NCBI GenBank assembly: GCA_011911785.1
Contig: GCA_011911785.1_4084.1
Direction: 5' to 3' (one strand)
DNA from: a phage
Length of the DNA stretch: 64,000 nt
Below, piece by piece: positions 203-43,151 of the stretch. The position numbers and the translations under genes are program-made. Within the stretch, counting starts at the first letter, position 1; each line of letters starts with the position of its first letter. A model generated the notes under the pieces. It was not told where the DNA came from and searched no databases. It saw only the letters and a list, made by a program, of their open reading frames with translations.

Positions 203-235
203 GGGTTGACTTCAGTCAGCCCTTTTTGCTATAAT
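203..235 (+). promoter_or_regulatory. Type-A terminator/promoter cassette: hairpin GGGTTGACTTCAGTCAGCCC + T-run, -35 TTGACT inside the stem, -10 TATAAT
   Basis: Read directly; near-identical cassette recurs at 931, 2356, 33296, 36728, 40039, 43119 and degenerate at 27554. Confidence 0.6.
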
Positions 236-263
236 TATTTCATCGAAACGAGAGGATGAATAC

Positions 264-701
264 ATGACACGCATTAACTTAGTACACGTTAAAGAACTTG
301 CTGACCAACATCTGATGGCTGAATATCGTGAACTTCCACGTGTGTTTGGTGCTGTACAAAAACATGTTCAAGCACGTAAGCGTGTACGTGATTTCAAAAT
401 TAACAGTACTTATCTGTTAGGTTCAGGTCATGTAACATTCTTCTACGACAAGTTACTGTACTTACAGAAGCGTCATATTGATATTGTTAACGAATGTTTG
501 CGTCGTGGTATGAAGATTCAAAACACTGAAGTAAACGACATTAGCGGCTTCCCTGCTGAGTTTTGTAATGACTACGTACCATCGGAGTCCGAGATTAAAA
601 CATCACGCGAGCGTTTGATTGAGAAGCTTCAGATGAAGCCTAAGTGGTATAAGTTTACTGATGTTGAGCTACCTGTATATTATGTTGATATGATACAATG
701 A
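264..701 (+). CDS. denV: Endonuclease V (pyrimidine dimer DNA glycosylase), phage T4 DenV homolog
   Basis: 145-aa product matches T4 endonuclease V along its length ([37 protein letters not shown]); T4 sequence recalled from memory. Confidence 0.9.
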
Positions 702-925
702 ATGATGAAGAATTCAAAAAATATGCGATTGAGAAGCTTGATTCATACAAGCCACGCGAAACGTATAAATTTAATCCTGATAAAACAAAAGCATCTATAA
801 GATGGTTGATTAATTCACCCAAATATACATTTGATGAAAAATATTCATGGATAGTGCAATGTAGTGATTATGAGGATTTGGTATATAATATTAAACTGTG
901 TTGGTATGAATACAACAATAAATGA
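698..925 (+). CDS. Hypothetical protein (75 aa)
   Basis: ATGA start/stop overlap with denV suggests translational coupling. Confidence 0.45.
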
Positions 926-930
926 TATAA

Positions 931-964
931 GGGGTTGACTTCGGTCAGCCCTTTTTGCTATAAT
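931..964 (+). promoter_or_regulatory. Type-A terminator/promoter cassette (GGGGTTGACTTCGGTCAGCCC + T-run; -10 TATAAT)
   Basis: Hairpin with TTCG loop followed by TTTTT, then TATAAT; read directly. Confidence 0.6.
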
Positions 965-990
965 CATTTCATCAACTCAAGAGGTAACAC

Positions 991-1227
991 ATGAAACTAT
1001 CTTTTATACGTTTAGCAGAATTCTTCGGTACTGATGTAATTACTCTACAACAAATCGCAGATAATACATCATTAACTACGCAAGAAGTACTTGACTTAGA
1101 TGTAATTAAGAGCGATAATACTTCCATTGATTTCAAAGAAGGTCTTGTCGAAAAAGATAAGATTCAAGCTAAGATTCATGGTGCTGGGCGGGTTCAGTAC
1201 TGGAAAGGAGTTTTAAGTAATGTTTGA
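991..1227 (+). CDS. Hypothetical protein (78 aa)
   Basis: ORF after type-A promoter with RBS GAGG. Confidence 0.45.
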   Translation: MKLSFIRLAEFFGTDVITLQQIADNTSLTTQEVLDLDVIKSDNTSIDFKEGLVEKDKIQAKIHGAGRVQYWKGVLSNV

Positions 1228-2347
1228 ACAGTACTATTTTAATGAAGATGGTGAAAAAGTTTATTTTTATGAAGAGCATGGAATGCTTTTTGAGTGGATG
1301 AAAGCCGAAGATATAAATTTTGTAAAAAAATCCAACATTGCTCAAGATCCTATTAGTATTATGGGTGAAATAAATGATCCAAGAGTTCTTGGATTCTATA
1401 TCAATAGATCACAAGATTATATATCTAAATCAAAAACCAAACTTGTAGTGAATAACGATGGTATGTTAGTTATTGGAGCCACCTGCACGAATTTTATTAG
1501 GCAGGGATTTAATGGGAAGATTTTTTACAATATTATTAATATTCCATATTACAGCCTTAATCATATTAGTGTCATCAACAAAAAATATGGTTATGATAAA
1601 TTTACTTATAGTGGAATAACTTCGTTTAACTCTACACTTCCTAGTAGAACTAAAATTGAAGTAGTATGTAATGATTGTGGTGATATAAAAAAACCCACAA
1701 TTACTGACTTAGCTACTGGTAAAATTGGTTGTCAAGAATGCACGAAACAAACTTTAGGTGAATTTATAAAAAAATCACATCTTATACACGGAAATAAGTA
1801 TGATTATTCTTTATATGACTACATTAACAACCAAGTAACCTCTATTATAATATGCAAAGAACATGGTGAATTTCAACAAACACCAAATTCACATCTGTCT
1901 GGTTCTGGTTGTCCCACGTGTGCAGTAAAAGGATTTAAAACTTCCAAGCCTGGAAGATTTTATATTCACAATGATTATGCAAAAAAATCGGATAAAGCTG
2001 GTATTACAAACAAAACTATTAAAGCAAGATTAAGTCCACAAAACTTATCTTATAAAAAAATATATAAAGTAGATAATTTTTGGAGTAATGAAATTTCCAT
2101 TTTATTTCATAAGAATGTGGGTGGGAAACTTGCTAGAGAATTGGAAATAATAATACATACAATTGCGTTATGTGGTAAACTATATAATAAAGGTTATTAT
2201 GAAAAGGGAGATGGTTGCACAGAAACATTCAATAATATCCATCGTCCTAAAGTTAATGAAGCCATTAAAAAATTCTTAGCTGAACATGAAGGAGAATACA
2301 TCATTGAACGTGATATCAATGGTATTTTTGGTGAAGTGATTGTATAA
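1220..2347 (+). CDS. Hypothetical protein with two zinc-ribbon-like Cys/His clusters (375 aa)
   Basis: CNDCG..GCQEC and CKEHG..GCPTC motifs; start overlaps upstream stop. Confidence 0.5.
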   Translation: MFEQYYFNEDGEKVYFYEEHGMLFEWMKAEDINFVKKSNIAQDPISIMGEINDPRVLGFYINRSQDYISKSKTKLVVNNDGMLVIGATCTNFIRQGFNGKIFYNIINIPYYSLNHISVINKKYGYDKFTYSGITSFNSTLPSRTKIEVVCNDCGDIKKPTITDLATGKIGCQECTKQTLGEFIKKSHLIHGNKYDYSLYDYINNQVTSIIICKEHGEFQQTPNSHLSGSGCPTCAVKGFKTSKPGRFYIHNDYAKKSDKAGITNKTIKARLSPQNLSYKKIYKVDNFWSNEISILFHKNVGGKLARELEIIIHTIALCGKLYNKGYYEKGDGCTETFNNIHRPKVNEAIKKFLAEHEGEYIIERDINGIFGEVIV

Positions 2348-2355
2348 AACAAAAA

Positions 2356-2387
2356 GGTTGACTTCGGTCAGCCCTTTTTGCTATAAT
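2356..2387 (+). promoter_or_regulatory. Type-A terminator/promoter cassette
   Basis: GGTTGACTTCGGTCAGCC hairpin + TTTTT + TATAAT upstream of ATPase gene. Confidence 0.6.
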
Positions 2388-2415
2388 CATATCATCAACT
2401 ACAGAGGGTAACGAA

Positions 2416-11035: not shown

Positions 11036-11046
11036 ATTTAAAATAA

Positions 11047-27523: not shown

Positions 27524-27807
27524 GCAGTTTACAAATCTTTACAATTGCCGGTATTGACTTATTTTGTCAGTACTGGCATAATGTATCTATTGAAACGAAC
27601 AATTTGGCCCACGGGGTGCGGGAGTGTATCTATAGAAAAAGTAGTTTAGTACAGTTACAATTGTGCACCCGGTGGGTTAGCTGTTGTCATGGGGTATATT
27701 ATACCAGTACTTGATAATGCTGTCAATACTTTTTTTTACTATTCAGTACTGAAAACTATTTTTAAAAAGTACTTGCAAACTATGTTTAAAGGCGTATAAT
27801 GTTTTAC

Positions 27808-32633: not shown

Positions 32634-32634
32634 T

Positions 32635-32844: not shown

Positions 32845-32913
32845 TTTTCAGTACTGTATAATTGTTTACATAGAGGGGGGAAATGGTTCTCCCCTGATAC
32901 TAGGAGAATCAAA

Positions 32914-33066: not shown

Positions 33067-33152
33067 AATCATTGGCTTATTACAGTTCGGCGGTGATCGG
33101 TGCATTGATCGCGGCATTGTTAGTAACCTATCTATTCTTTGTGGTGATTTAA
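33063..33152 (+). CDS. Tiny hydrophobic peptide (29 aa)
   Basis: ATGA overlap with upstream stop; single TM-like segment. Confidence 0.25.
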   Translation: MKSLAYYSSAVIGALIAALLVTYLFFVVI

Positions 33153-33290
33153 ATGAATCCTAACGGTTTAATTTACAGTGCTCCTAAAACGAAAGCAGAT
33201 AAAGCGAAAGCACGTAAAGCGAAAGTAAAGGAGTACATCAAGCAAGGCATGACGCGAAAAGCAGCAGTACTAAAAGCTAAAAATAAATGA
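33153..33290 (+). CDS. Small Lys-rich basic protein (45 aa)
   Basis: TAAATG overlap; hand-translated. Confidence 0.3.
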   Translation: MNPNGLIYSAPKTKADKAKARKAKVKEYIKQGMTRKAAVLKAKNK

Positions 33291-33295
33291 AAAAA

Positions 33296-33329
33296 GTGGT
33301 TGACTTCGGTCAGCCATTTTGCTATTATA
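33296..33329 (+). promoter_or_regulatory. Type-A terminator/promoter cassette
   Basis: GTGGTTGACTTCGGTCAGCCA hairpin; -10 TATTAT; 13-nt motif follows at 33353. Confidence 0.55.
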
Positions 33330-33409
33330 TATTCATTGAGAGATAGCTCACTAGCCCACCGGGTGCGGAAGTGTAAATAAAATATATCAATCTAATAAGG
33401 AGTACTACA

Positions 33410-33592
33410 ATGTTTAAACCAATCGAACTAGCGGCATCACATATCATCGGTAAACCTGCCGTTATCATACGCCAGGAAGACGTAAACCTATGGATCATCT
33501 ATGTAGACATGAAAGAGATTGAGCGTCACGATGATTTCAAATCAGCGTCAATTGCGTATGATATGGCGTTATGTGAGTATCAAAGAGATTAA
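33410..33592 (+). CDS. Hypothetical small early protein (60 aa)
   Basis: RBS AAGGAG. Confidence 0.5.
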   Translation: MFKPIELAASHIIGKPAVIIRQEDVNLWIIYVDMKEIERHDDFKSASIAYDMALCEYQRD

Positions 33593-33691
33593 AAGTATTT
33601 TGCAAAAAGTACTTGCATTGTACTTAGAATCAAGTATAATGTTTTACATAGCAAGGGGAAACGGTTTCCCCTGGTAATAAGGAAACGAATC

Positions 33692-34033
33692 ATGACTATC
33701 TCAATTGCTCAATCTAACTTTGAAAACGAAATCATCGCCCAGGCACTGCGTTTAAATGATGGTCGGGCCGAAATTAATTACGGTTTCAATTCAGGCGGTT
33801 GTGAAAACTATCAGTACTTTGTAACGGCTGATGGCGGTGTCCTGGGAATCAATACAGTTATTGTAAACATTCAGAAAATTAATTTCAATGATCCAGACGA
33901 TAGCCAGTTTTACATTGTCGGCGTAGACGTGAACTATGAGGATGACTCACTAACTGATGATTGCACTGGTGAGAAGTTAGAAAGTGCATACGGTGAAGAT
34001 GATTATCAGTCCGGTCCAGAAGATTTCGAATAA
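33692..34033 (+). CDS. Hypothetical acidic protein (113 aa)
   Basis: Promoter cassette; RBS AAGGAAA. Confidence 0.55.
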   Translation: MTISIAQSNFENEIIAQALRLNDGRAEINYGFNSGGCENYQYFVTADGGVLGINTVIVNIQKINFNDPDDSQFYIVGVDVNYEDDSLTDDCTGEKLESAYGEDDYQSGPEDFE

Positions 34034-34128
34034 TATTAAAAAATAGTTTGACAATAGATTATAGTACTGTATAATAGTTTACATCAAGGGGAGAATAGTT
34101 CTCCCCACTAACAGAGAGAGAAAACAAA

Positions 34129-34341
34129 ATGGCTAATATCCGGTCGAAATTGAAAAATGCAAAACAAGTTTTATTTTCAGACCATGAATACTTTAATAAA
34201 GATATTACAGGAGTTACAAGTATCAAGGAAGTAAAAGAAAAAACTGGCGTTTTGTGTGATGTGCGATTGGTTGGAACATTTGGGAATAACGTGCTATATC
34301 GATGCGGTGATTATAACTTTACATTAACCATTATCGATTAA
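34129..34341 (+). CDS. Hypothetical small early protein (70 aa)
   Basis: Promoter TTGACA..TGTATAAT + hairpin upstream. Confidence 0.55.
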   Translation: MANIRSKLKNAKQVLFSDHEYFNKDITGVTSIKEVKEKTGVLCDVRLVGTFGNNVLYRCGDYNFTLTIID

Positions 34342-34423
34342 AAATATTATCACAGTACTATTGACAAAGATTGATAGTACTGGCATAATAGATTTTATCA
34401 ACTACACTACTAAGGAATTAAAA

Positions 34424-34603
34424 ATGGCTATCATCGCAAAAACTGAAATCGTTGGTCTGGATTCTATCATCATGACGTTTGAAGATCAAAAAGGGATGTA
34501 TGTAGTTTCCTATGGTGATTATGTTCGGGAGTATGAAACGGTAGACGAAGCCTTTGAAAGTTACATTCGCCAGGTGAATAAAGCATACGACGACTACCGC
34601 TAA
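34424..34603 (+). CDS. Hypothetical small early protein (59 aa)
   Basis: Upstream cassette shared with 31434 and 31738; track start 34361 rejected. Confidence 0.5.
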   Translation: MAIIAKTEIVGLDSIIMTFEDQKGMYVVSYGDYVREYETVDEAFESYIRQVNKAYDDYR

Positions 34604-34702
34604 AATATATTACCAGTACTATTAAAGATATTGACATAGTTTGATAGTACTGTATAATAAGTTTTATCAACAGTAGTTAACTTAACCTAAGAGAGAAAGA
34701 AA

Positions 34703-34846
34703 ATGATCGCACTGGATTCATTCATCGAAGCAGTACTGGCAAAAACTGGCGAAGATCTGACCGCAGAACAATACGCAATGATCGAACAATGCCAGCAAGA
34801 CGGTAAATCGGTGAAAGATACTGTTAAGATTATCCGCAAGATGTAA
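34703..34846 (+). CDS. Hypothetical small protein (47 aa), not in ORF track
   Basis: Promoter + RBS AGAGAGAAAG; terminator follows. Confidence 0.4.
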   Translation: MIALDSFIEAVLAKTGEDLTAEQYAMIEQCQQDGKSVKDTVKIIRKM

Positions 34847-34852
34847 GATTAT

Positions 34853-34882
34853 AGCCCACTGGTTAACGCTGGTGGGCTTTTT
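34853..34882 (+). terminator. Intrinsic terminator AGCCCAC..GTGGGCT + TTTT
   Basis: Read directly. Confidence 0.65.
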
Positions 34883-35024
34883 AGTATATACCTATCCGAT
34901 AGTACTACAAAATAGATTAGCTCGTTAGAATGCGTTTGAGAGCGTTTAAATAAGTACTAAAAAGTAATTGACAGTACTGAAAGATAGTATATAATATTTT
35001 ATATCTTAACTGAGGATAGAAATC

Positions 35025-35381
35025 ATGGGAATACAACACATCACGCGTACTACTGACAATGGTGAGATCACTGGTTATCAAGTACAGGGAAAAGCGTCAC
35101 AATTGCAGTACTGGTTTGAAAAACGTGGATTGATTGCACCGGATCTTGATTATGACCGTGTAGCGTTTATTGATTCTCTTTATGTTGATTCTGCTAGTCG
35201 GGGTAATGGTGAAGGCACGGAATTGATGAACGCCTTTATTGATGCCGCCGATGATTCAGATTGTATCATTTTAGAATGCGATACGGGAGAAGATAACGCC
35301 TTTAATCTTAAAGAATGGTACGAAGGTTTCGGATTCGAAGTACTGATCGATAGTGAATATCCTATCATGATTTTATCGTAG
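35025..35381 (+). CDS. Putative GNAT-family N-acetyltransferase (118 aa)
   Basis: Motif A-like VDSASRGNGEGTELM and motif B-like NAFNLKEWYEGFGF. Confidence 0.5.
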   Translation: MGIQHITRTTDNGEITGYQVQGKASQLQYWFEKRGLIAPDLDYDRVAFIDSLYVDSASRGNGEGTELMNAFIDAADDSDCIILECDTGEDNAFNLKEWYEGFGFEVLIDSEYPIMILS

Positions 35382-35469
35382 TACTAAAAAGTAATTGACA
35401 GTACTGATAGATAGTGTATAATGTTTTACATGAAGGGGAAACATCTTCCCCTACTAAGAGGAAATGAAA

Positions 35470-35658
35470 ATGGAAAACTTATCAAGTATTTTAGTACAAG
35501 ATGAATACGGCAATCCAGGAAGTGCTATCATTGTTCGGGGTAATAAGGCAACGTTTGTTATTGCTGGTGGACCTGTACAGCGTAGCATTAAAAACAATGC
35601 CGTTACTATTAATAATGTACGCTATCGCTTAGATAAAGAATTGATTCACAAACTGTAA
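35470..35658 (+). CDS. Hypothetical small early protein (62 aa)
   Basis: RBS AAGAGGA 7 nt upstream; promoter + hairpin. Confidence 0.5.
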   Translation: MENLSSILVQDEYGNPGSAIIVRGNKATFVIAGGPVQRSIKNNAVTINNVRYRLDKELIHKL

Positions 35659-35685
35659 TATTAATTTAATAGAGGATAACAATAA

Positions 35686-36009
35686 ATGTACATTCATACT
35701 ACTATCACAAAGGAAGTCCGTTGCCAGTTCGAAAGTATTCCGGGCGTATGTTTCATCACTGGTACGTTTTCCCCTGGTGATCGTGATAATCCAGTACTGT
35801 TACAATTACGCCATCCATCATGGGATAAAGCATTTGATCTACCGTTGAATGAATTCGCAACTACTGCTGAAAAGTACATTAAAAATATTCGCGAGAATGA
35901 TCGACTATTCATTAATGCTTTTAGTGATTCCGCGTTAAGCGAGATCCACGGCGTATTGGTTGCAATCATGGAATCTATGCAGAAAACTAAATTCAAACAA
36001 GGTGAATAA
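35686..36009 (+). CDS. Hypothetical small early protein (107 aa)
   Basis: RBS AGAGGA. Confidence 0.55.
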   Translation: MYIHTTITKEVRCQFESIPGVCFITGTFSPGDRDNPVLLQLRHPSWDKAFDLPLNEFATTAEKYIKNIRENDRLFINAFSDSALSEIHGVLVAIMESMQKTKFKQGE

Positions 36010-36093
36010 AAACTATTGACAATGCAATCCAGTACTGTATAATAAGTTACATGAAGGGGAGAAATGATTCTCCCCAGTACTGAGGAAAGAAAA

Positions 36094-36306
36094 ATGCAAG
36101 GTCAACTAATCGTTCGTAAATGGTCTGATACTAACGAAAAACCGTGGGATGTACAATACATCGCCCCCAATGGTGAATCCAGATATCAACCAGGTGTAAC
36201 GCATAGTACTGAGCAATTCGCCGCCGCACACCGTGAACGCCTGTTACAATCCATGCAGCAAGGCTTCGGTGAAAAATTCATCCAAGATCATTGGCTGAAA
36301 GATTAA
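36094..36306 (+). CDS. Hypothetical small early protein (70 aa)
   Basis: Track start 36064 lies in the leader hairpin; RBS GAGGAAAG. Confidence 0.55.
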   Translation: MQGQLIVRKWSDTNEKPWDVQYIAPNGESRYQPGVTHSTEQFAAAHRERLLQSMQQGFGEKFIQDHWLKD

Positions 36307-36393
36307 AAAAGTACTTGTGAAGTACTTAGAATCAAGTATAATGTTTTACATAGAGAGGGGAATAGTTCCCCTCCTAACAAAAAGGAAAGTAAC

Positions 36394-36567
36394 ATGATCC
36401 AAGTAGAATTGACAGTACTGAAAGATCTGTTTTATCGGATGGGTACTACTGGCGAATATCCGAAAGGTGATACCGCAAAACTTTACGTATCGCTGGATGT
36501 ATGGCAACGCGAACAATTAGCAACGGCCTGGCGTAAAGGCAAAGCAGATCGCGAGGTGCAAGCATGA
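36394..36567 (+). CDS. Hypothetical small protein (57 aa), not in ORF track
   Basis: Promoter + hairpin + RBS AAAGGAAAG. Confidence 0.4.
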   Translation: MIQVELTVLKDLFYRMGTTGEYPKGDTAKLYVSLDVWQREQLATAWRKGKADREVQA

Positions 36568-36713
36568 AAGAATACTTATTCGAAGTTACATTTTTGGGGC
36601 AAGGTATGCACCAACTAGTAAGATCCAGCGGTTATAGTCTTAACCAGGCATGGAATAACTTAAAGAAAATGTACCCTAACGCTATCACATATCGCAACCC
36701 AAAAGAAGTTTAA
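36564..36713 (+). CDS. Hypothetical small protein (49 aa), not in ORF track
   Basis: ATGA overlap with upstream gene. Confidence 0.35.
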   Translation: MKEYLFEVTFLGQGMHQLVRSSGYSLNQAWNNLKKMYPNAITYRNPKEV

Positions 36714-36727
36714 AAATAATTGAAAAA

Positions 36728-36760
36728 GGGATTGACTCCGGTCAGTCCCTTTGCTATTAT
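36728..36760 (+). promoter_or_regulatory. Type-A terminator/promoter cassette
   Basis: GGGATTGACTCCGGTCAGTCCC hairpin; -10 TATTAT; motif GCCCACAGGGTGC at 36781. Confidence 0.6.
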
Positions 36761-36894
36761 ATACGCATAGAAACAAATCAGCCCACAGGGTGCATAAATG
36801 TATCTATTATATGCTGGTGGACGTATTATCTAGTACTGAAAACTATTATAAAAAAGTACTTGCATTGTACTTAGAATCAAGTATAATGTTTTAC

Positions 36895-36970
36895 ATCAGG
36901 ACGGGGAATGAAACAAGTAACCCCGTTAAGTAGTCCAGGAGTAAGACATAAGAAAACCTCCCCTGATAAA
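36895..36970 (+). other. Conserved ~76-nt structured leader element (copy 2)
   Basis: About 85% identical to 27808-27883; lies between promoter at 36858-36887 and promoter at 36976. Confidence 0.35.
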
Positions 36971-36975
36971 ATAGT

Positions 36976-37003
36976 TTGACAATAGAAAGTAAACGAGTAT
37001 AAT
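36976..37003 (+). promoter_or_regulatory. Early promoter TTGACA-16-TATAAT
   Basis: Read directly. Confidence 0.6.
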
Positions 37004-37035
37004 ACTTACATCAACCACTGATAAGGAAACATAAA

Positions 37036-37311
37036 ATGCGGATTCTACTGACAGCTAACGAAATCGAACAAGTACTGACTACTAACCTGCAAGACTGGAA
37101 ACGTGAAGCAGATATCCAGGCGGTTCAATGGCTTAACGATAAGTTAACGCCGGATGACTTAAGCAAGATTGTAGATCCTCAATTCTATGAAGATATTCAC
37201 GACACCGCGTTAAGCGTCGAGGATGTACTTGATAAGCACTACATTGATATTGATTTGCAGGTTTACGGTCGTAAAAACTTTATCACTATTCACGACATTT
37301 ACAATAATTAA
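37036..37311 (+). CDS. Hypothetical small early protein (91 aa)
   Basis: RBS AAGGAAA. Confidence 0.55.
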   Translation: MRILLTANEIEQVLTTNLQDWKREADIQAVQWLNDKLTPDDLSKIVDPQFYEDIHDTALSVEDVLDKHYIDIDLQVYGRKNFITIHDIYNN

Positions 37312-37314
37312 GTA

Positions 37315-37342
37315 TTGACAAAGTATCTTAGTACTGTATAAT
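37315..37342 (+). promoter_or_regulatory. Early promoter TTGACA-16-TGTATAAT; 5' stem-loop at 37357-37375; cassette duplicated at 37573-37640
   Basis: Read directly. Confidence 0.6.
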
Positions 37343-37398
37343 AGTTTACATCAAGTGAGGGGAATGGTTCCCCTCCTAACTAAAAGAGAGAAATAAAA

Positions 37399-37581
37399 AT
37401 GGCTAAGTGCACTATCTGTAAGAAAGAAATCGTATTAGTTCCAAGTGCCCGTGAACGTGCCGCTCGGTTCGGTGGCAAAGCGTCAGACTATACAAAAATG
37501 TTTACTACCCATGCAGATTGCCAGGTAGCAAAACGTTCACAAGAAAGCGTAGAATTAATGCGTAAACTTTCCAGAAAATAA
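37399..37581 (+). CDS. Small Cys-containing protein (60 aa)
   Basis: CTICKK..HADC; start ATGGCT. Confidence 0.5.
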   Translation: MAKCTICKKEIVLVPSARERAARFGGKASDYTKMFTTHADCQVAKRSQESVELMRKLSRK

Positions 37582-37669
37582 GTATTGACAAAGTATCTTA
37601 GTACTGTATAATAGTTTACATCGAGTGAGGGGAAACGGTTCCCCTCCTAACAAAGAGAGAGAAATAAAA

Positions 37670-37993
37670 ATGGCTATGATCCTCACCCAGAAAGTAGAAC
37701 TGAAAATTGTAACCTCCTTTGACATTAAAGTTAATCGGTGGACTGATTCACACGGCAATACTTACCACTCTTGCTACGTGTCTGCTTTGATTGGTGATCG
37801 CTGGGAGGATTTAGGACATGAAACCTTTACTTACGGTTACGGCACACAAGGCGAATACACAGGCTTGGAGATCATTAAAGAAACCGTTATAGGTTTCAAC
37901 CCGAAAGAAAAAGTTATTCATCAAATAGAAAAAGAGATCAACAAAGAAATAACAGTTCGATACTACGATGTAAAACGTAAGAAAGACATGTAA
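37670..37993 (+). CDS. Hypothetical small early protein (107 aa); paralog of 31738-32061
   Basis: Track start 37625 rejected. Confidence 0.55.
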   Translation: MAMILTQKVELKIVTSFDIKVNRWTDSHGNTYHSCYVSALIGDRWEDLGHETFTYGYGTQGEYTGLEIIKETVIGFNPKEKVIHQIEKEINKEITVRYYDVKRKKDM

Positions 37994-38015
37994 TAGAATC
38001 CATTTAAAGTACTAT

Positions 38016-38044
38016 TTGACATTGCCCAGATAGTACTTTATAAT
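38016..38044 (+). promoter_or_regulatory. Early promoter TTGACA-17-TATAAT
   Basis: Degenerate copy precedes paralog gene at 26940. Confidence 0.55.
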
Positions 38045-38092
38045 AGACTCTAGCTTGTAGTACTAATTAACTTAACTAATAGGATGTATACC

Positions 38093-38488
38093 ATGATTAC
38101 TAAATTCTACGCTACCCGTGAAGCTGCCCGTATTGTTGCACGCGAGGAAGGAGCAGCATTTAAAGACATGGGCACGACCGCACCGAAAGGCCAACGCTGG
38201 GCCGTACAGTTCAAAGAAATCTCTGATATTGTGCATTCACCTGAGCCAGTACTAACAGCAGCAGAACTAAAACGAGCGGATATGCTGGCGGCAGTACTTA
38301 ACGCACAAGATGAGTTTATCGCTGGTTCTGATATCAAAGTACAGGTAAATGCTAATGCATGGACTCACGCGGATCACCTGGCTAACCTGAAGCGTCCAAG
38401 TGAACTGGTTCGCAACCAAAAAGAGATCCGTCATGATCGTAAGGGTAATCGTGTAACAGTATACAGTAAACGCCGCCAGGTTATCTAA
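38093..38488 (+). CDS. Hypothetical early protein (131 aa); paralog of 26940-27206
   Basis: RBS AGGA 8 nt upstream. Confidence 0.55.
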   Translation: MITKFYATREAARIVAREEGAAFKDMGTTAPKGQRWAVQFKEISDIVHSPEPVLTAAELKRADMLAAVLNAQDEFIAGSDIKVQVNANAWTHADHLANLKRPSELVRNQKEIRHDRKGNRVTVYSKRRQVI

Positions 38489-38510
38489 TAACTTGCAGTA
38501 CTAACAACAC

Positions 38511-38535
38511 GGCGGGATCAGTTCCCGCCTTTTTT
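38511..38535 (+). terminator. Intrinsic terminator GGCGGGA-tcagt-TCCCGCC + TTTTTT
   Basis: Read directly. Confidence 0.8.
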
Positions 38536-38550
38536 ATAGGATAAACTAAA

Positions 38551-38805
38551 ATGATTAAGGTTCAACTATCAAAAGATAATATCTTGCGGGTACACTATAA
38601 AGCACCACAGAGAATCATCACAAAGGCCGTACAGCTTGCTAATGAGTTTATTAATGGTAATCTATTGCCCAGGAAGTTAAGCAACGGCAAACTGCGTGTA
38701 ATCGATGTAGACACTAACAACAGAATAGTAATCGAGAATACAGGAAAGATAAACCTATATGAACACCAACAATATAATAAGAAAATAAAACTAATATCAC
38801 GTTGA
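38551..38805 (+). CDS. Hypothetical small early protein (84 aa)
   Basis: RBS AGGA. Confidence 0.5.
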   Translation: MIKVQLSKDNILRVHYKAPQRIITKAVQLANEFINGNLLPRKLSNGKLRVIDVDTNNRIVIENTGKINLYEHQQYNKKIKLISR

Positions 38806-38858
38806 CAGTACTCAATTGTTTTAGTACTATGTATCTATACCAACACGGGAGAAACAAA

Positions 38859-39077
38859 ATGAAATTATCTAAAATCGAAAAGAAAACTATTGATGAAGCA
38901 GTTAAGCACGGTTATACCTTTCGTAATGATTCACATTTTACCAATTTTCAACAAGGGTATCGTACTATTAAAAAACTTATTGACAAAGGTTTATTAGTTG
39001 AAGTCAATAACGGTAACGGTATCGAGTATCAACCAACACAAGACGCATTATCTTTAAAGAAATATGCAATTATCTAA
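38859..39077 (+). CDS. Hypothetical small early protein (72 aa)
   Basis: Promoter TTGACA-17-TACTAT duplicated at 39080; track start 38802 rejected. Confidence 0.5.
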   Translation: MKLSKIEKKTIDEAVKHGYTFRNDSHFTNFQQGYRTIKKLIDKGLLVEVNNGNGIEYQPTQDALSLKKYAII

Positions 39078-39142
39078 TTGACAGTACTCAATTGTTTTAG
39101 TACTATATGTACATACCAACACGGAATAACTGGAGAAACAAA

Positions 39143-39370
39143 ATGATTAATATCTTAGAACGCATCAAAGAAACTACTACGCTGGTGGATCTACTCAATG
39201 TACTGACTTTTAAAGTAACTCGGTTTAGTACTCCTGAATTTATCAACCTCATTGATAGTAAAGGTGAATACCGCATCACTATTGAAAATGGTCGTGCTAA
39301 TGTATTCAGTACTAAATCAGGTAAAACCGCAATTCATTCAGTAATTGCAAATAAAACTGTTGCAATCTAA
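39143..39370 (+). CDS. Hypothetical small early protein (75 aa)
   Basis: RBS GGAG; track start 39107 rejected. Confidence 0.5.
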   Translation: MINILERIKETTTLVDLLNVLTFKVTRFSTPEFINLIDSKGEYRITIENGRANVFSTKSGKTAIHSVIANKTVAI

Positions 39371-39439
39371 TTAGTACTAACATATAATAGTCACATCAAG
39401 GCAGGGAATACCTCCCTGCTATCTTAAAGAGTAAATGCA

Positions 39440-40024
39440 ATGCGTAATTATACTAAATTCATCCGTACACTGGCAGAAATGGAAACTAATAAAGAGATCC
39501 TTACAGCTTGTCGGTTGGCTGGTCTGGAGATCATCGGGGCCGGATCATCCCGTATCGTATTCGCTTTAAATGATCGGTTAGTGATTAAGGTCGCTAATTG
39601 TGACGCTGGCGTAGAACAAAATGAAACAGAATGTAAGGTATGGAATTTTTTAGATTATGACCGCCCTCACCTTAAACAGTACTTTGCTAAGGTGCATATG
39701 CATTTAAGCGATCCTGATAATATGTTTATTGTTATGGATCGTTTGAGTACTGCAAGCAAAGGCAGTGTAAAGCACGTTAACGCTTGCAATGAATTAAAGT
39801 ACAATGTCAAACGTAACACTATTGAACGCCAACACCATTTCGCTGATGCACTACAACACGTTGATGATACCTTATCAACACTAACGATAAGAGATATCAG
39901 AAAGCAGAACATAGGCCAAGATCGCAATGGCCTGATTAAAGTACTTGATTACGGTTTAACCCGCAATATCTGGAATCAGTACTATAAACAACGCGACGTA
40001 AAAGCCGTAACTATAACACGATAA
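39440..40024 (+). CDS. Putative protein kinase-like protein (194 aa)
   Basis: Gly-loop IGAGSSRIV, Lys in VIKV, catalytic-loop-like RDIRKQN, DYG in place of DFG. Confidence 0.5.
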   Translation: MRNYTKFIRTLAEMETNKEILTACRLAGLEIIGAGSSRIVFALNDRLVIKVANCDAGVEQNETECKVWNFLDYDRPHLKQYFAKVHMHLSDPDNMFIVMDRLSTASKGSVKHVNACNELKYNVKRNTIERQHHFADALQHVDDTLSTLTIRDIRKQNIGQDRNGLIKVLDYGLTRNIWNQYYKQRDVKAVTITR

Positions 40025-40038
40025 AAAAGATTAAAAAA

Positions 40039-40071
40039 GGGATTGACTCCAGTCAGTCCCTTTGCTATTAT
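40039..40071 (+). promoter_or_regulatory. Type-A terminator/promoter cassette
   Basis: GGGATTGACTCCAGTCAGTCCC hairpin; -10 TATTAT; motif variant at 40097. Confidence 0.6.
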
Positions 40072-40248
40072 ATAGTCATTGAGAGATAACTCACTGACCC
40101 ATAGGGTGCATAAGTGTATCTATAATATAAGTATTGTCAGTACTGAAAACTATTTTTAAAAAGTACTTGCATTGTACTTAGATTCAAGTATAATGTTTTA
40201 CATAGAGAGGGGGAAATAGTTCTCCCTCAAAGAATAAGGAATAAAATC

Positions 40249-40470
40249 ATGACTACAATGACTTGCATTTACGCTTCCAATCTTCTGAATGATGCGGCCT
40301 TTAATGTTGATTCAGAATATCAATGTTATCGGGATGAAAATAAAAAAGTTTTTGTAGTTGATAATAATGGTTTCCATATTGAATTACAATCCGGCTTCAC
40401 TGGTGTTGATGGTAAATCAGTATGGGGCGTTCAGGATGATAAAGGCACATATCATTTTAAACGTAATTAA
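40249..40470 (+). CDS. Hypothetical small early protein (73 aa)
   Basis: Promoter + hairpin + RBS AAGGAAT. Confidence 0.55.
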   Translation: MTTMTCIYASNLLNDAAFNVDSEYQCYRDENKKVFVVDNNGFHIELQSGFTGVDGKSVWGVQDDKGTYHFKRN

Positions 40471-40553
40471 GTATTGACAAAGTATATCAGTACTGTATAA
40501 TAGTTTACATCAAGGGGAGAATAGTTCTCCCCGATACTAAAAGGAATAAAATC

Positions 40554-40961
40554 ATGACTACTACTAATCAAGCTCGGTCCATCACCAACGATAAAAATCA
40601 TGCTGCAATGGTCGCTGGTTACATTGAAGCTATGCAATTCAGTACTGTACACAATGAGAACGGCGACTACCTGGAAGATTATGAATTATCAGAGCAAGCC
40701 CATCAAGCGGCAGTGATTGCATGTTCTCGTTTCCTTGAGAAGTTTAGTAATGAAATGGAAGCAGTACAAAAACACCATAATCCTGATTATACTTATAGTC
40801 ATGCAGGTCATGATCTCTTTCTTACCCGCGAAGGTCACGGTACTGGCTTTTGGGATCGTGATATCGGTCACTATGACGATGTATTCACTAAGTACTGCGA
40901 AGAAATCAACGTTTGCGATCCCTATGTAGGCGATGATAATCTAATCTATATGGGCGAATAA
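40554..40961 (+). CDS. Hypothetical His-rich early protein (135 aa)
   Basis: HAGHDLFLTREGHGTGFWDRDIGH; promoter cassette. Confidence 0.55.
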   Translation: MTTTNQARSITNDKNHAAMVAGYIEAMQFSTVHNENGDYLEDYELSEQAHQAAVIACSRFLEKFSNEMEAVQKHHNPDYTYSHAGHDLFLTREGHGTGFWDRDIGHYDDVFTKYCEEINVCDPYVGDDNLIYMGE

Positions 40962-41048
40962 AAGTATTTGACAAAGCATATCAGTACTGTATAATAGTTT
41001 ACATCAAGGGGAGAATAGTTCTCCCCACTACTAAAAGGAAACAAAATT

Positions 41049-41321
41049 ATGTCTAGCTACTCCGCTACTATGATCATCAAAGATATGAACGGTAATCCTA
41101 CTTCCGCTGGTGGATCATTTGGAAACATTAACTTAGATGGTCGGTTATCAATGGAATCAGCCATCAATGCAGCGAAAGAAGTTTTTAAGAATGAATGTAC
41201 TGTAAGCAAGCTGGATTATATGGGCTTCGCTATCGAGAAAACTAAACGTTTTGTGGACTACAAAAATCCACTGATGATTGATACTAACCTGAAAGCTAAC
41301 GAAGTGGAATACTTATTATGA
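41049..41321 (+). CDS. Hypothetical small early protein (90 aa)
   Basis: Promoter cassette; RBS AAGGAAA. Confidence 0.55.
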   Translation: MSSYSATMIIKDMNGNPTSAGGSFGNINLDGRLSMESAINAAKEVFKNECTVSKLDYMGFAIEKTKRFVDYKNPLMIDTNLKANEVEYLL

Positions 41322-41509
41322 CAGTTGATGAAGTTAAAAAAGTACTGGCAGTACTACGCTATCATAATCATTGTAAGGTTAAGAATGATCCTGATTATGT
41401 TGATTCATCCCTGGAGGAAGACACCTTAAACGCGATAAGCCATATGCAAACATTAGCAAAGCGTATGACCGAAAAGAATAGGCCGGACTATATCGGAAAT
41501 AAAATTTAA
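41318..41509 (+). CDS. Hypothetical small early protein (63 aa)
   Basis: ATGA overlap. Confidence 0.5.
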   Translation: MTVDEVKKVLAVLRYHNHCKVKNDPDYVDSSLEEDTLNAISHMQTLAKRMTEKNRPDYIGNKI

Positions 41510-41596
41510 AAAGTACTTGCATTGTAGTTAGATTAACGTATAATGTTTTATATCGAGAGGGGGAAATGGTTTCCCCTCAAGTCCAGGAGATACACC

Positions 41597-41863
41597 ATGA
41601 ACACTATCGAAATCACTATCAATGCTCACGTATACGACAACGTAGTACTGCAAACTACTATGACCGCTAACGATACCAGTACTTTGCGGAATACTGTTAT
41701 AAGTGCTGTATGTGCCGCTATCGGTGATGTATCCCTGGAAAACGCAGAACACATCAATAACGGTTTCACTATGTGCAAACGTGATAACGCAAAACATATC
41801 ATCGTAGAAGGTTACGGCGGTGTAGAATATAATCTTTATATGAAAAAAGTACTTGCATCGTAA
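41597..41863 (+). CDS. Hypothetical small early protein (88 aa)
   Basis: Track start 41543 lies in promoter/leader; RBS AGGAG. Confidence 0.55.
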   Translation: MNTIEITINAHVYDNVVLQTTMTANDTSTLRNTVISAVCAAIGDVSLENAEHINNGFTMCKRDNAKHIIVEGYGGVEYNLYMKKVLAS

Positions 41864-41928
41864 GTAAAACAAAGTATAATGTTTTGCATAGGGGGAGATA
41901 TCCTCCCCCACTAATAAGGAGTACTACG

Positions 41929-42153
41929 ATGGCTAATCATGATGAACTGATTCGGGAAGTAGCTAACCTGGCGGCAGAAAAGAAATCATTTGATTCTATC
42001 TATAACACCGCTCACCGTGATTCAGTACTGGCATGTAATCAGGATCAAAAAGATGAACTGATCGCAACCTATCATGAAGCGTGGAAGTATTACCGTCAAT
42101 GGGAGAAAGAAGAAAAAGCATCAACCATAAGAGGATTAAATAATCTAGTATAA
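41929..42153 (+). CDS. Hypothetical small early protein (74 aa)
   Basis: Track start 41884 rejected; RBS AAGGAG. Confidence 0.55.
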   Translation: MANHDELIREVANLAAEKKSFDSIYNTAHRDSVLACNQDQKDELIATYHEAWKYYRQWEKEEKASTIRGLNNLV

Positions 42154-42205
42154 CAATAAAAGGGGATGATAATATCCCCTTAATAATTTCTATAATAGGT
42201 TAACA

Positions 42206-42472
42206 ATGAAAAAGAAAACAACATATCGCTATAATAAAAATTATCAATCCGTTGTATTAGATCACTCTATGCTCCCGCTCGTTGTCCCTGCCGTTGGTGT
42301 AGTCTATCAATCCATATACTGGTCAAGGAAACAACAAAAGTACTTAAAAGGCCCAATAGCACGCTATGAGGGTAATGGTGTATGGTCCGATCCGTTACAT
42401 CCAATCACTACGCGTTATATTGAATATTTTCCTTATTGTGACTACATTGAAATACATCCTAAATTTAATTGA
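42206..42472 (+). CDS. Hypothetical small protein (88 aa); paralog of 42553-42810
   Basis: Shared ..GNG(V/E)W(S/F)DP.. Confidence 0.5.
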   Translation: MKKKTTYRYNKNYQSVVLDHSMLPLVVPAVGVVYQSIYWSRKQQKYLKGPIARYEGNGVWSDPLHPITTRYIEYFPYCDYIEIHPKFN

Positions 42473-42552
42473 TAGTATTGACAGTACTAACTGATAGTGT
42501 ATAATGTTTTGCATAGGGGGAATACTCCCCCAATATTAAAAGGGGAAACATC

Positions 42553-42810
42553 ATGGAACAATTCACACAATATCGGGTAAATCCTCAAGCTATGGCCTAC
42601 GTAGAAGACCATAAAACGTTACCAGTACTGCAACCAGTTAAAGGCCGTATCTATCGTGGCCTTGCATGGAATACGGCCCAGGATGGATATAAAACCGTTG
42701 CCGTGGGGATGTATTGCGGTAATGGTGAATGGTTTGATCCAAATAATCCGGTAGCTATTGACAGTACTGAAAAAATGAAATGGGCCGACTATATCGAGGA
42801 TATCTCATAA
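42553..42810 (+). CDS. Hypothetical small protein (85 aa); paralog of 42206-42472
   Basis: Promoter + hairpin; RBS AAGGGGAAA. Confidence 0.55.
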   Translation: MEQFTQYRVNPQAMAYVEDHKTLPVLQPVKGRIYRGLAWNTAQDGYKTVAVGMYCGNGEWFDPNNPVAIDSTEKMKWADYIEDIS

Positions 42811-42899
42811 AACTATTTGACAGTACTATCATATAGTGTATAATGTTTTACATAGAGCGGGGGAATAGTTCTCCCGCCAATAGTTTGGAGTAAAACATT

Positions 42900-43100
42900 A
42901 TGTCAATCGCTAACGAAATGATCGCAGTACTGAAAGAAGCTAAAGCCAACCTGATCGACGTAAAGATCCAGGAACTACAATCCGGCTTAATCGGCTGTAC
43001 TTGTACCGCTGGTGGGGCGACAGATTATCGTGAATTCGAATCACTCGAATCGATGGTTCGGTATCTTACAATGATCGTGGAAGATTGGAAGATCATCTAA
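42900..43100 (+). CDS. Hypothetical small early protein (66 aa)
   Basis: Promoter + hairpin. Confidence 0.5.
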   Translation: MSIANEMIAVLKEAKANLIDVKIQELQSGLIGCTCTAGGATDYREFESLESMVRYLTMIVEDWKII

Positions 43101-43118
43101 CAAAAAAGAATAAAAAAA

Positions 43119-43151
43119 GGGATTGACTCCGGTCAGTCCCTTTGCTATTAT
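43119..43151 (+). promoter_or_regulatory. Type-A terminator/promoter cassette
   Basis: GGGATTGACTCCGGTCAGTCCC; -10 TATTAT; motif GCCCACAGGGTGC at 43172. Confidence 0.6.

What the first reader, a model, noticed from the sequence alone, without database searches (positions are those of the whole stretch)
203..43151. Bifunctional terminator-promoter cassette with the -35 hexamer embedded in the terminator stem
At least seven copies (203, 931, 2356, 33296, 36728, 40039, 43119; degenerate at 27554) of GGG(T/A)TTGACT(T/C)CGGTCAG(C/T)CC-TTTTTGCTAT(A/T)AT. The hairpin plus U-run would terminate upstream transcription, while TTGACT inside the stem and the TATAAT immediately after form a promoter. In the 33-43 kb region the copies recur every 3.1-3.4 kb and delimit blocks of 8-11 small genes, giving the early region a segmented super-module structure.
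Basis: partly seen in the sequence, partly recalled or inferred. Interest (0 to 1): 0.5.

Follow-up and report, generated by a model that had tools for sequence, protein, structure and literature searches.

The report
Phage terminator-promoter cassettes (PeSL-like)
Seven copies of a roughly 40-bp signal in this jumbo coliphage probably both stop transcription from the gene upstream and restart it for the gene downstream; this kind of signal (PeSL) is already known from T4-like phages, so this is a new example of it.

Summary
There are exactly seven + strand copies, against 0.36 core matches expected by chance. The window comes from an Asteriusvirus (121Q/PBECO4-type) jumbo coliphage.

Each copy has:
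- an A-run;
- an 8-9 bp G+C-rich hairpin with a UNCG-type tetraloop, whose 5' arm is the -35 element TTGAC;
- a T-run;
- TGn plus TATAAT or TATTAT at 17-18 bp.

Across 52 related cassettes the stem covaries. The inner 3' arm changes only by Watson-Crick to G-U transitions, which fits an RNA hairpin on the sense strand. Among 69 promoter-like sites in the window, only these seven combine a strong hairpin (-11 kcal/mol or better) with a T-run of 3-5.

All three class A copies lie at homology breakpoints against phage 121Q, which also carries a half cassette cut in the loop. This matches the PeSL cassettes of T4-type phages, one subclass of which has the stem-loop overlapping the -35. Neither function is shown experimentally.

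The 3.1-3.4 kb "super-module" is not conserved: spacing is 2.3-4.0 kb in relatives, the blocks are not paralogous, and other terminators lie inside them.

The four class B copies sit in the ~20.6-kb terminal repeat. Each drives a conserved leader motif that has no Rfam match.

The parts
195..235 (+). Class A cassette 1. A-run, hairpin 203-222 (GGGTTGAC-TTCA-GTCAGCCC), T5, TGC, -10 TATAAT 230-235; -35 TTGACT 206-211. Lies 27 nt after the stop of the upstream gene and is followed by RBS+ATG of the denV-like gene (264-701).
   Evidence: homology breakpoint against 121Q at about 203
924..964 (+). Class A cassette 2. Hairpin 932-951 (GGGTTGAC-TTCG-GTCAGCCC), T5, TGC, TATAAT 959-964. Lies 5 nt after the stop at 925; the downstream gene starts at 991.
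   Evidence: homology with 121Q resumes exactly at 921
2347..2387 (+). Class A cassette 3. Hairpin 2356-2373 (the outermost A-C is not paired), T5, TGC, TATAAT 2382-2387. Lies 8 nt after the stop at 2347; the downstream gene starts at 2416.
   Evidence: breakpoint against 121Q at 2351-2359
33289..33328 (+). Class B cassette 1. Hairpin 33297-33316 (TGGTTGAC-TTCG-GTCAGCCA), T4, TGC, TATTAT 33323-33328. Lies 5 nt after the stop at 33290.
   Evidence: a single-gene indel against CRJP21 starts at 33375
36721..36760 (+). Class B cassette 2. Hairpin 36728-36749 (GGGATTGAC-TCCG-GTCAGTCCC), TTT, TGC, TATTAT 36755-36760.
40032..40071 (+). Class B cassette 3. Hairpin 40039-40060 (loop TCCA), TATTAT 40066-40071.
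43112..43151 (+). Class B cassette 4. Hairpin 43119-43140, TATTAT 43146-43151.
33355..33375 (+). Conserved leader core (CCCAYNGGGTGCNNNARTGTA), starting 27 nt after the -10 of class B cassette 1.
36782..36802 (+). Leader core downstream of class B cassette 2; a Chi site follows at 36813.
40098..40118 (+). Leader core downstream of class B cassette 3.
43173..43193 (+). Leader core downstream of class B cassette 4; a Chi site follows at 43231.
27548..27740 (+). The 'degenerate' copy. A promoter with its -35 inside an 11-pair hairpin without a T-run (27554-27582), then the leader core (27608-27628), a long imperfect hairpin and a terminator-like hairpin plus U8. This is a candidate ~150-nt non-coding RNA unit, not a terminator-promoter cassette.

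Best explanation
Each cassette is a compact transcriptional reset between adjacent early transcription units read by the host sigma-70 RNA polymerase.

- Termination (inferred): when polymerase arrives from the gene upstream, the nascent RNA folds into an 8-9 bp G+C-rich hairpin closed by a UNCG-type tetraloop. A-U pairs from the flanking A-run and U-run extend the hairpin, and the following U-tract releases the transcript.
- Initiation (inferred): the same duplex DNA is a near-consensus promoter. The A-run acts as an UP-like element. TTGAC of the 5' arm plus the first loop base forms the -35. The loop, 3' arm and T-run form the 17-18 bp spacer. TGn plus TATAAT or TATTAT forms an extended -10. 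Its own transcript starts downstream of the hairpin, so the two functions do not interfere with each other.
- Recombination: because the copies are near-identical repeats of 50 bp or more, they also serve as sites for homologous exchange, which gives gene gain, loss and replacement at their edges. This is the behaviour of the PeSL cassettes of T4-type phages.

What is shown here: the sequence anatomy, selection for the sense-strand hairpin, the exclusive pairing of hairpin and T-run, and the breakpoints. Termination and initiation themselves are inferred.
For: - Seven copies against 0.36 expected; no other copies in the window.
- Hairpin energy is -9.8 to -12.7 kcal/mol for the 20-nt core and -14.5 to -19.5 with the A/U extension.
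- Of 69 + strand promoter-like sites in the window, only these seven combine folding of -11 or better with a T-run of 3-5. Ordinary promoters fold at 0 to about -6 with T-runs of 2 or fewer.
- A structure-blind collection (TTGAC plus TTT-TGn-TAnnnT) from 2.3 Mb of fetched loci is bimodal: 42 of 107 sites have 5/5 inner and at least 4 outer pairs, and the rest scatter around chance.
- On 52 distinct cassettes, 95.8% of cells are paired. Seven of 12 pairs change on both sides, in 50 cells, and 0 of 500 shuffles reach the covariation score. Slid registers drop to 26-61% paired. Outer stems seen: GGG/CCC, GGGA/TCCC, GTAC/GTAC, GGAG/CTCC, TGG/CCA, GGCCAC/GTGGCC.
- The inner 3' arm varies only as GTCAG, GTCAA, GTTAG, GTTGG or GTCGG. 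These are Watson-Crick to G-U changes that pair only on the + strand.
- Loops are enriched for UUCG/UNCG and GNRA.
- All copies lie 5-27 nt after a stop codon of a co-oriented gene.
- The annotators of Salmonella phage Munch labelled the homologous hairpin 'terminator'.
- Breakpoints against 121Q fall at all three class A copies, and 121Q has a half cassette cut in the loop.
- Precedent: PeSL stem-loops may overlap the -35. In lacZ constructs the PeSL211/210 stem-loop terminated about as well as rrnB T1, and PeSL promoters were so strong that nearly all clones carried mutations in the -35 or -10.
Against: - No transcript 5' or 3' end data exist for this phage or any close relative in the literature searched.
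- The class B U-tract is only UUU or UUUU followed by GCUAUUAU, so termination there may be partial (an attenuator).
- The cassettes used for covariation were selected for pairing. The chance expectation for that filter is about 0.2 sites by my own estimate, but the pair counts for the filtered positions are partly by construction.
- Many loci were fetched with the core 14-mer itself, which fixes the inner stem in those.
- Only 1 of 4 class B copies sits near a breakpoint against CRJP21.
Confidence: 0.75

Rival explanations
1. The cassettes are promoters only. The hairpin is selected as a 3'-end stabiliser or weak attenuator of the upstream mRNA, protecting it from 3' exonucleases after read-through or processing, and is not an efficient terminator.
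For: The class B U-tract is short (3-4 U) and partly consumed by pairing with the A-run. Some genes in the region follow terminator-like hairpins without a promoter of their own, for example 38511 before the gene at 38551, which implies that read-through is tolerated.
Against: The T-run occurs only together with the hairpin and is 90% or more conserved at three positions. Class A copies have a textbook U5 tract. A PeSL stem-loop terminated about as well as rrnB T1 in vivo.
Confidence: 0.12
2. The inverted repeat is a DNA-level signal that switches the early promoter off or on. It would be either an operator for a dimeric phage or host regulator overlapping the -35, or a supercoiling-dependent cruciform.
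For: TGAC-N4-GTCA is a palindrome centred on the promoter. Other promoters in the region carry AGTACT...AGTACT inverted repeats around the -35, and AGTACT is 12.7-fold over-represented.
Against: The outer stem changes sequence freely while keeping complementarity, which is the reverse of what a protein site does. The conserved T-G and the frequent G-T pairs would be C-A mismatches on the other strand, which would weaken a cruciform or any true dyad. Loops favour RNA-stable UNCG/GNRA tetraloops.
Confidence: 0.05
3. The copies persist mainly as recombination modules, as mobile PeSL-type repeats that shuffle genes. Their regulatory activity would be incidental.
For: Breakpoints lie at all three class A copies, and 121Q has a half cassette cut in the loop. 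Single-gene indels are flanked by ~100-bp promoter repeats. The identical 24-mer occurs in unrelated phage lineages.
Against: Recombination needs only sequence identity. It does not explain stem covariation, tetraloop choice, the T-run, or near-consensus -35 and -10 elements at correct spacing. This reading is compatible with the best explanation rather than exclusive of it.
Confidence: 0.08

Closest known systems
PeSL (promoter-early stem-loop) cassettes of T4-type phages RB49/phi1, PST/T4 and nt-1/KVP40 (Arbiol et al. 2010, PMC2839356; Comeau et al. 2014, PMC4122927)
   Same: Both are composites of a strong sigma-70 early promoter with an AT-rich upstream region and a stem-loop terminator. 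Both lie between the stop codon of one small gene and the SD/ATG of the next, occur in many near-identical copies in gene-variable early regions, and associate with indels, replacements and half elements. One described subclass has the stem-loop overlapping the -35, and the nt-1 type stem-loop consensus is A3-4G3-loop-C3T3-4.
   Different: The host lineage is Asteriusvirus/RaK2-like jumbo phages, not Straboviridae. Only one architecture is used here (-35 in the 5' arm, UNCG-type tetraloop, extended -10). There are only about 7 copies in 64 kb, among about 38 ordinary promoter-like sites in the terminal repeat. Class B copies drive a conserved leader motif instead of a gene directly. Mini-circles and reporter activity were not tested here.
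Canonical intrinsic (Rho-independent) terminators of enterobacteria
   Same: A G+C-rich 8-9 bp stem, a 4-nt loop, a 3' U-tract, an upstream A-run as in bidirectional terminators, and a position just after a stop codon.
   Different: The 5' arm is constrained to spell TTGAC and the tail to spell TGnTATAAT. The class B U-tract is short.
RpoD-like early promoters with UP-like elements predicted in the RaK2-like phage CBB (Buttimer et al. 2017, PMC5259590)
   Same: The same phage group and the same promoter type, concentrated in small-gene early regions and in the terminal repeat.
   Different: That study listed promoters and terminators separately, and no composite element was described. The CBB orthologue of class B has the hairpin AGTAC-TTGAC-TCCG-GTCAG-GTACT.
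Morons of lambdoid phages (a gene flanked by its own promoter and terminator)
   Same: Autonomous small transcription units delimited by a promoter and a terminator (discussed).
   Different: In morons the signals are separate and not repeated, and they are not thought to mediate the insertion.
Promoter-terminator coupling in bacteria (bioRxiv 2026, 'Widespread coupling of promoters and terminators of transcription in bacteria'; I saw only the title and the start of the abstract)
   Same: The general idea that initiation and termination sites of adjacent units are physically coupled.
   Different: It concerns cellular genomes. I could not read the paper, so no detailed comparison is possible.

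Membership tests
PeSL cassette | Near-consensus sigma-70 early promoter with an AT-rich upstream region | tested here: met
   TTGACT, 17/18 bp, TATAAT/TATTAT, with TGn and an upstream A-run in all 7 copies
PeSL cassette | Stable stem-loop adjacent to or overlapping the promoter (the described subclasses include overlap with the -35) | tested here: met
   8-9 bp stems at -9.8 to -12.7 kcal/mol; covariation on 52 cassettes; subclass definition
PeSL cassette | [quoted passage not shown] | tested here: met
   Class A: stop codon, 5-27 nt, cassette, then RBS/ATG about 30 nt after the -10. Class B departs from this: a leader motif follows, and at 3 of 4 copies a second promoter precedes the gene.
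PeSL cassette | Multiple conserved copies concentrated in gene-variable regions rich in small genes of unknown function | tested here: met
   Seven copies. Four lie in the patchily conserved terminal-repeat early region.
PeSL cassette | Copies coincide with indel or replacement junctions between close relatives; half elements occur | tested here: met
   3 of 3 class A copies lie at breakpoints against 121Q, and 121Q has a half cassette cut in the loop. Only 1 of 4 class B copies is near a breakpoint against CRJP21.
PeSL cassette | Measured promoter and terminator activity; mini-circle formation | not testable with these tools
   Requires reporter assays and inverse PCR, as in Arbiol 2010
PeSL cassette | Host genome is a T4-type phage (the group in which the class was defined) | tested here: not met
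   The closest records are Asteriusvirus. This describes where the class was first found rather than how it works. Identical cassettes do occur in T4-type Aeromonas phage 65 and in a ~253-kb Vibrio phage, D482.
Intrinsic terminator | G+C-rich hairpin immediately followed by a U-tract | tested here: met
   Class A has U5. Class B has U3-4 in a U-rich tail, which is marginal.
Intrinsic terminator | Transcript 3' ends map to the U-tract | not testable with these tools
   No transcriptome found for this phage group apart from the distant PA5oct
Sigma-70 promoter (extended -10 type) | Transcription start about 7 nt after the -10 | not testable with these tools
   Needs 5'-end mapping
Any Rfam family or tRNA (for the hairpin or the class B leader) | Covariance-model match | tested here: not met
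   No hit at gathering score in the window. Only chance-level hits at E up to 1 in 24.2-44.2 kb. No tRNA or tmRNA.

The most novel reading that the evidence does not exclude
In this reading the class B cassettes mark the start of an undescribed early non-coding RNA element found across RaK2-like jumbo phages.

- It has an invariant core, R-CCCAYNGGGUGC-N3-ARUGUA, starting a fixed 27 nt after the -10 in the window copies. A short variable 5' hairpin often precedes it.
- It occurs five times in the ~20.6-kb terminal repeat of this phage.
- It is present in phages infecting Escherichia, Klebsiella, Cronobacter, Pectobacterium, Serratia and Yersinia.
- In several relatives an intrinsic terminator follows within about 45 nt, giving an sRNA-like unit of roughly 100 nt.

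The terminator-promoter would then give this RNA a defined 5' end at the head of each early module. The RNA itself might be a host-takeover sRNA or a cis-acting leader.
Probability: 0.35. Interest if true: 0.6.

Novelty: new member of a known kind. Interest (0 to 1): 0.3.

Why it matters
- It extends PeSL-type terminator-promoter cassettes from T4-type phages to the RaK2/Asteriusvirus jumbo phages.
- It gives comparative evidence (covariation and sense-strand-only G-U pairs) that the hairpin acts as RNA.
- The same 24-mer recurs in unrelated phages, including a phage of a Gram-positive host. This points to a convergent or exchangeable minimal insulator part that could be useful in synthetic biology.
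- It supplies ready-made landmarks for annotating early transcription units and recombination junctions in genomes where more than 80% of genes have no known function.
- It does not open a new mechanism.

Tried and rejected
- The idea that the 3.3-kb blocks are tandem duplications was rejected: all-against-all BLASTP shows no colinear paralogy and the spacing differs in relatives.
- tRNA and Rfam searches of the window and of the early region gave nothing.
- RNAalifold on 22 leader sequences recovered only the invariant CCC/GGG triloop hairpin, with no compensatory pairs.
- A position-restricted search for the 5' hairpin (P1) found stems of 4 bp or more in 11 of 23 leaders, against 33% of mononucleotide shuffles. 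P1 is therefore suggestive only, even though its stems differ between copies (TGAG/CTCA, GGAG/CTCC, GACG/CGTC, AGACA/TGTCT, AGCA/TGCT).
- The class B leader alone (36762-36850) is not unusually structured (z = +0.36).
- A put-like antitermination reading of the leader was considered and set aside. It would conflict with the next cassette acting as a terminator, and nothing tests it.
- A full-text search for the cassette and leader sequences found only unrelated primer matches.
- The 2026 preprint on promoter-terminator coupling could not be opened.
- The ONT-cappable-seq paper on LUZ7 contained no terminator-promoter overlap relevant here.


Full report
**1. Observation**

The core TTGACTYCGGTCAG, allowing up to 2 mismatches, occurs 8 times against 0.36 expected; 0 of 100 shuffles reach 8. 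Seven hits are the reported + strand copies. The eighth (27308-27321, - strand) lies in coding sequence. A profile HMM built from the seven finds them again at E 1e-14 to 1e-17 and finds no further + strand copy in the window.

The copies fall into two classes.

- Class A (195-235, 924-964, 2347-2387): A-run, GGGTTGAC-TTCG-GTCAGCCC, TTTTTGC, TATAAT. An RBS and ATG follow about 30 nt later.
- Class B (33289-33328, 36721-36760, 40032-40071, 43112-43151): A-run, GGGATTGAC-TCCG-GTCAGTCCC (TGG...CCA at 33296), TTTGC, TATTAT.

The 'degenerate' copy at 27554 is a promoter. Its -35 sits in a different 11-pair hairpin with a 7-nt loop and no T-run.

**2. Context**

The window is 85-94% identical, in patches, to Asteriusvirus jumbo coliphages of 350-380 kb such as CRJP21, 121Q, PBECO4 and fEgEco12.

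- Position 74 of the CRJP21 record aligns with window 24538, so the record start corresponds to about window 24,460.
- The right end of the annotated 21,525-bp direct terminal repeat of vB_Ec-M-J maps between window 44,473 and 45,174.
- The fEgEco12 termini and its 20,993-bp repeats were confirmed experimentally.

Window positions from about 24.46 to about 45.1 kb are therefore the terminal repeat, and all four class B copies lie in it. Class A copies lie about 22-24 kb upstream of it, in front of a denV-like gene (Pyr_excise, E 9e-15) and other genes.

Inside the repeat almost every small gene has its own promoter. There are about 38 + strand promoter-like sites scoring at least 10/12 in 20.6 kb, 17 of them perfect 12/12. 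Many are followed by a conserved leader with a 5' hairpin (GGGGAGAA...TTCTCCCC) and an RBS.

**3. Is the hairpin selected, and at what level?**

- Energy: the 20-nt core folds at -9.8 to -12.7 kcal/mol, and at -14.5 to -19.5 with the A/U extension.
- Uniqueness in the window: among 69 promoter-like sites, only the seven cassettes combine folding of -11 or better with a T-run of 3-5. Ordinary promoters fold at 0 to about -6 and have T-runs of 2 or fewer.
- Structure-blind test: I collected 107 sites from 2.3 Mb of fetched loci using TTGAC plus TTT-TGn-TAnnnT only. The set is bimodal: 42 sites have 5/5 inner and at least 4 outer pairs, and the rest scatter around chance.
- Pairing-filtered set: a filter requiring pairing returns 65 distinct cassettes. 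By my own estimate, about 0.2 would pass that filter by chance.
- Covariation: on 52 of these, 95.8% of cells pair. Seven of 12 pairs change on both sides, in 50 cells. No shuffle of 500 reaches the covariation score, and slid registers fall to 26-61% paired.
- Outer stems: GGG/CCC, GGGG/CCCC, GGGA/TCCC, GGAG/CTCC, TGG/CCA, GTAC/GTAC, AAGCC/GGCTT and GGCCAC/GTGGCC. The CBB and GAP32 orthologues of class B, identified independently through the downstream leader, read AGTAC-TTGAC-TCCG-GTCAG-GTACT. This is true covariation between homologues.
- Inner 3' arm: it varies only as GTCAG, GTCAA, GTTAG, GTTGG or GTCGG. These are Watson-Crick to G-U changes that pair only on the + strand.
- Loops: they favour UUCG/UNCG and GNRA.

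Together these point to an RNA hairpin in sense transcripts. They argue against a protein-binding dyad or a cruciform.

Caveats: the pairing filter and the use of the core 14-mer to fetch many of the loci make part of the pair counts true by construction. The unfiltered outer pairs (columns 4-5 with 26-27) are still 98-100% paired with several pair types.

**4. Terminator and promoter readings**

- All copies lie 5-27 nt after the stop codon of a co-oriented gene.
- The T-run is present only where the hairpin is.
- The homologous hairpin in Salmonella phage Munch was annotated 'terminator' by its depositors.
- Promoter side: TTGACT (5/6), spacer 18 (class A) or 17 (class B), TGn, TATAAT (6/6) or TATTAT (5/6), and an A-run where an UP-element proximal subsite would lie. 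The last point rests on established knowledge of sigma-70 promoters.
- The cassette's own transcript starts downstream of the hairpin, so the functions act on different molecules.
- The class B U-tract is short, so I expect class B to be leakier than class A. This is inference.

**5. Recombination**

Against 121Q, homology breaks at window ~203, resumes exactly at 921, and breaks again at 2351-2359. These are the edges of all three class A cassettes, and different genes lie between them. 121Q also has a half cassette cut in the loop (AAAGGGTTGACTTCGGT|tacaca).

In the terminal repeat, single-gene differences against CRJP21 are bounded by promoter repeats.

- Gene 40554-40961 lies between the 91%-identical ~100-bp repeats at 40469-40565 and 40962-41061.
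- Gene 33410-33592 lies between the class B leader and the next promoter.

Only 1 of 4 class B copies is near a breakpoint in that comparison.

**6. The super-module claim**

- The same four copies are 4027/3271/2257 bp apart in CRJP21 and 3658/3276/2757 bp apart in vB_Ec-M-J.
- The blocks share no colinear paralogy.
- Conventional terminator-like hairpins lie inside the blocks, at 34853, 38511 and 42160.

The near-regular spacing in this genome therefore looks incidental.

**7. Class B leader**

Each class B promoter is followed by a conserved stretch ending in CCCAYNGGGTGCNNNARTGTA, whose core starts 27 nt after the -10.

- The motif retrieves 21 IMG/VR stretches. Eighteen are RaK2-like phage contigs and three are unrelated chance matches, which I excluded from the leader set.
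- In the RaK2-like contigs it always lies behind a sigma-70 promoter at the same distance. That promoter may or may not carry the hairpin.
- In several relatives an intrinsic terminator follows within about 45 nt.
- In the window copy at 27554 the motif begins a long hairpin that ends in a stem plus U8 (MFE -46.5 kcal/mol, z = -3.06).
- There is no Rfam match.
- The distant relative PA5oct has two highly transcribed non-coding RNAs in its terminal repeat.

The function is unknown. Structural support beyond the invariant CCC/GGG hairpin is weak.

**8. Comparison with known systems**

PeSLs of T4-type phages are sigma-70 early promoters combined with stem-loops. The stem-loop may lie upstream of the promoter, between the boxes, or overlapping the -35 or the -10.

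- The stem-loop of PeSL211/210 terminated about as well as rrnB T1 in lacZ constructs.
- PeSL promoters were too strong to clone unmutated.
- PeSLs flank indels and form mini-circles.
- The nt-1/KVP40 stem-loop consensus is A3-4G3-loop-C3T3-4, and degraded 'half' PeSLs occur.

Every sequence-level PeSL feature I could test is met here (see the membership table). The differences are the phage lineage, the single architecture, and the class B leader.

Papers on this phage group list RpoD-like promoters and terminators separately (CBB) or do not mention them at all (fEgEco12). The cassette sequence appears in no paper searched.

**9. Recurrence in other phage lineages**

Near-identical cassettes occur in the following phages:

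- a ~253-kb Vibrio phage, D482;
- the T4-type Aeromonas phage 65;
- Cronobacter phage CR9 (Vequintavirinae);
- Salmonella phage Munch, with a GAAA loop;
- Brochothrix phage A9 (Herelleviridae, Gram-positive host).

The exact 24-mer GGGTTGACTTCGGTCAGCCCTTTT is found in 25 IMG/VR stretches but in only 7 of 185,579 bacterial species genomes.

The constraints are a TTGAC -35, a C(UUCG)G tetraloop, complementarity, a G/C clamp and a U-tract. Given these, convergence on this sequence is plausible, and horizontal spread is not excluded.

**10. Verdict**

This is a genuine, well-formed, PeSL-type terminator-promoter cassette family and a new member of a known kind. Both functions are supported by comparative evidence, and neither has been measured. 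The periodic super-module idea does not hold.

Noticed in passing
window 30516-43238 (also 6273): There are nine Chi sites (GCTGGTGG), all on the + strand, and eight of them lie within 12.7 kb of the terminal repeat; 0.53 are expected. The terminal-repeat/early regions of relatives show the same bias in CRJP21 (9 + / 2 -), 121Q (5/0), CBB (7/1) and vB_Ec-M-J (8/1); other fetched loci are mixed or lack Chi (L247 has 1 + / 6 -). This orientation would be read by RecBCD entering from the right genome end. Phage P1 is a precedent: its many Chi sites in or near the terminal repeats are thought to drive circularisation. I found no report of this for these jumbo phages.
   Followed up: partly
whole window, e.g. 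28808/28828, 31355/31377, 38008/38032: The palindrome AGTACT occurs 267 times against 21 +/- 4 expected. It occurs throughout the window, in regions of either gene orientation. In the early region it sits at fixed promoter positions, just upstream of the -35 (AAAAAGTACTTGCA) and just upstream of the -10 (CAGTACTGTATAAT), so pairs of copies enclose the -35. Unexplained.
   Followed up: partly
window 27608-27628, 33355-33375, 36782-36802, 40098-40118, 43173-43193: An invariant motif, CCCAYNGGGTGCNNNARTGTA, starts 27 nt after the -10 of a sigma-70 promoter. It is conserved across RaK2-like phages of at least six host genera and has no Rfam match. It is a candidate leader or small RNA. Related reverse-sense motifs (GCACCCGGTGGGCT) occur at 25590 and 27665.
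   Followed up: partly
window 27548-27740: A stand-alone non-coding unit: promoter, leader motif, long imperfect hairpin, then a terminator-like hairpin with U8 (MFE -46.5 kcal/mol, z = -3.06). It is a candidate ~150-nt RNA.
   Followed up: partly
window 24460-45100: This stretch corresponds to the ~20.6-kb direct terminal repeat of Asteriusvirus genomes. There are about 38 promoter-like sites, 17 of them perfect TTGACA-16/17-TATAAT matches. Many are followed by a conserved leader with a 5' hairpin (GGGGAGAA-N4-TTCTCCCC) and an RBS. Beyond ~45.2 kb the genes are tightly packed and mostly lack promoters of their own.
   Followed up: partly
window 24221-26105: A stretch of about 1.9 kb at the left genome end lacks convincing ORFs. 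It is rich in AGTACT, promoter-like sites on both strands, and copies of the GGGTGC/GCACCC motif.
   Followed up: no
window 40469-41061 and 33375-33591: These are single-gene insertions relative to CRJP21. Gene 40554-40961 is flanked by 91%-identical ~100-bp promoter repeats. Gene 33410-33592 lies between the class B leader and the next promoter. Both look like repeat-mediated gene gain or loss.
   Followed up: yes
window 10930-20508, - strand: An array of about nine ~1.2-kb genes on the - strand (for example 11047-12258, 12293-13483, up to 19567-20499). Each has an 85-98% identical ~100-bp repeat at its 5' end and upstream region. Genes 17196-18338 and 18412-19554 are 75% identical along their whole length.
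   Followed up: no
L268:3803-3826 (phage 121Q): A half cassette, AAAGGGTTGACTTCGGT, is joined to unrelated sequence within the loop. It resembles the degraded 'half PeSLs' and the crossover within the loop described for T4-type phages.
   Followed up: yes
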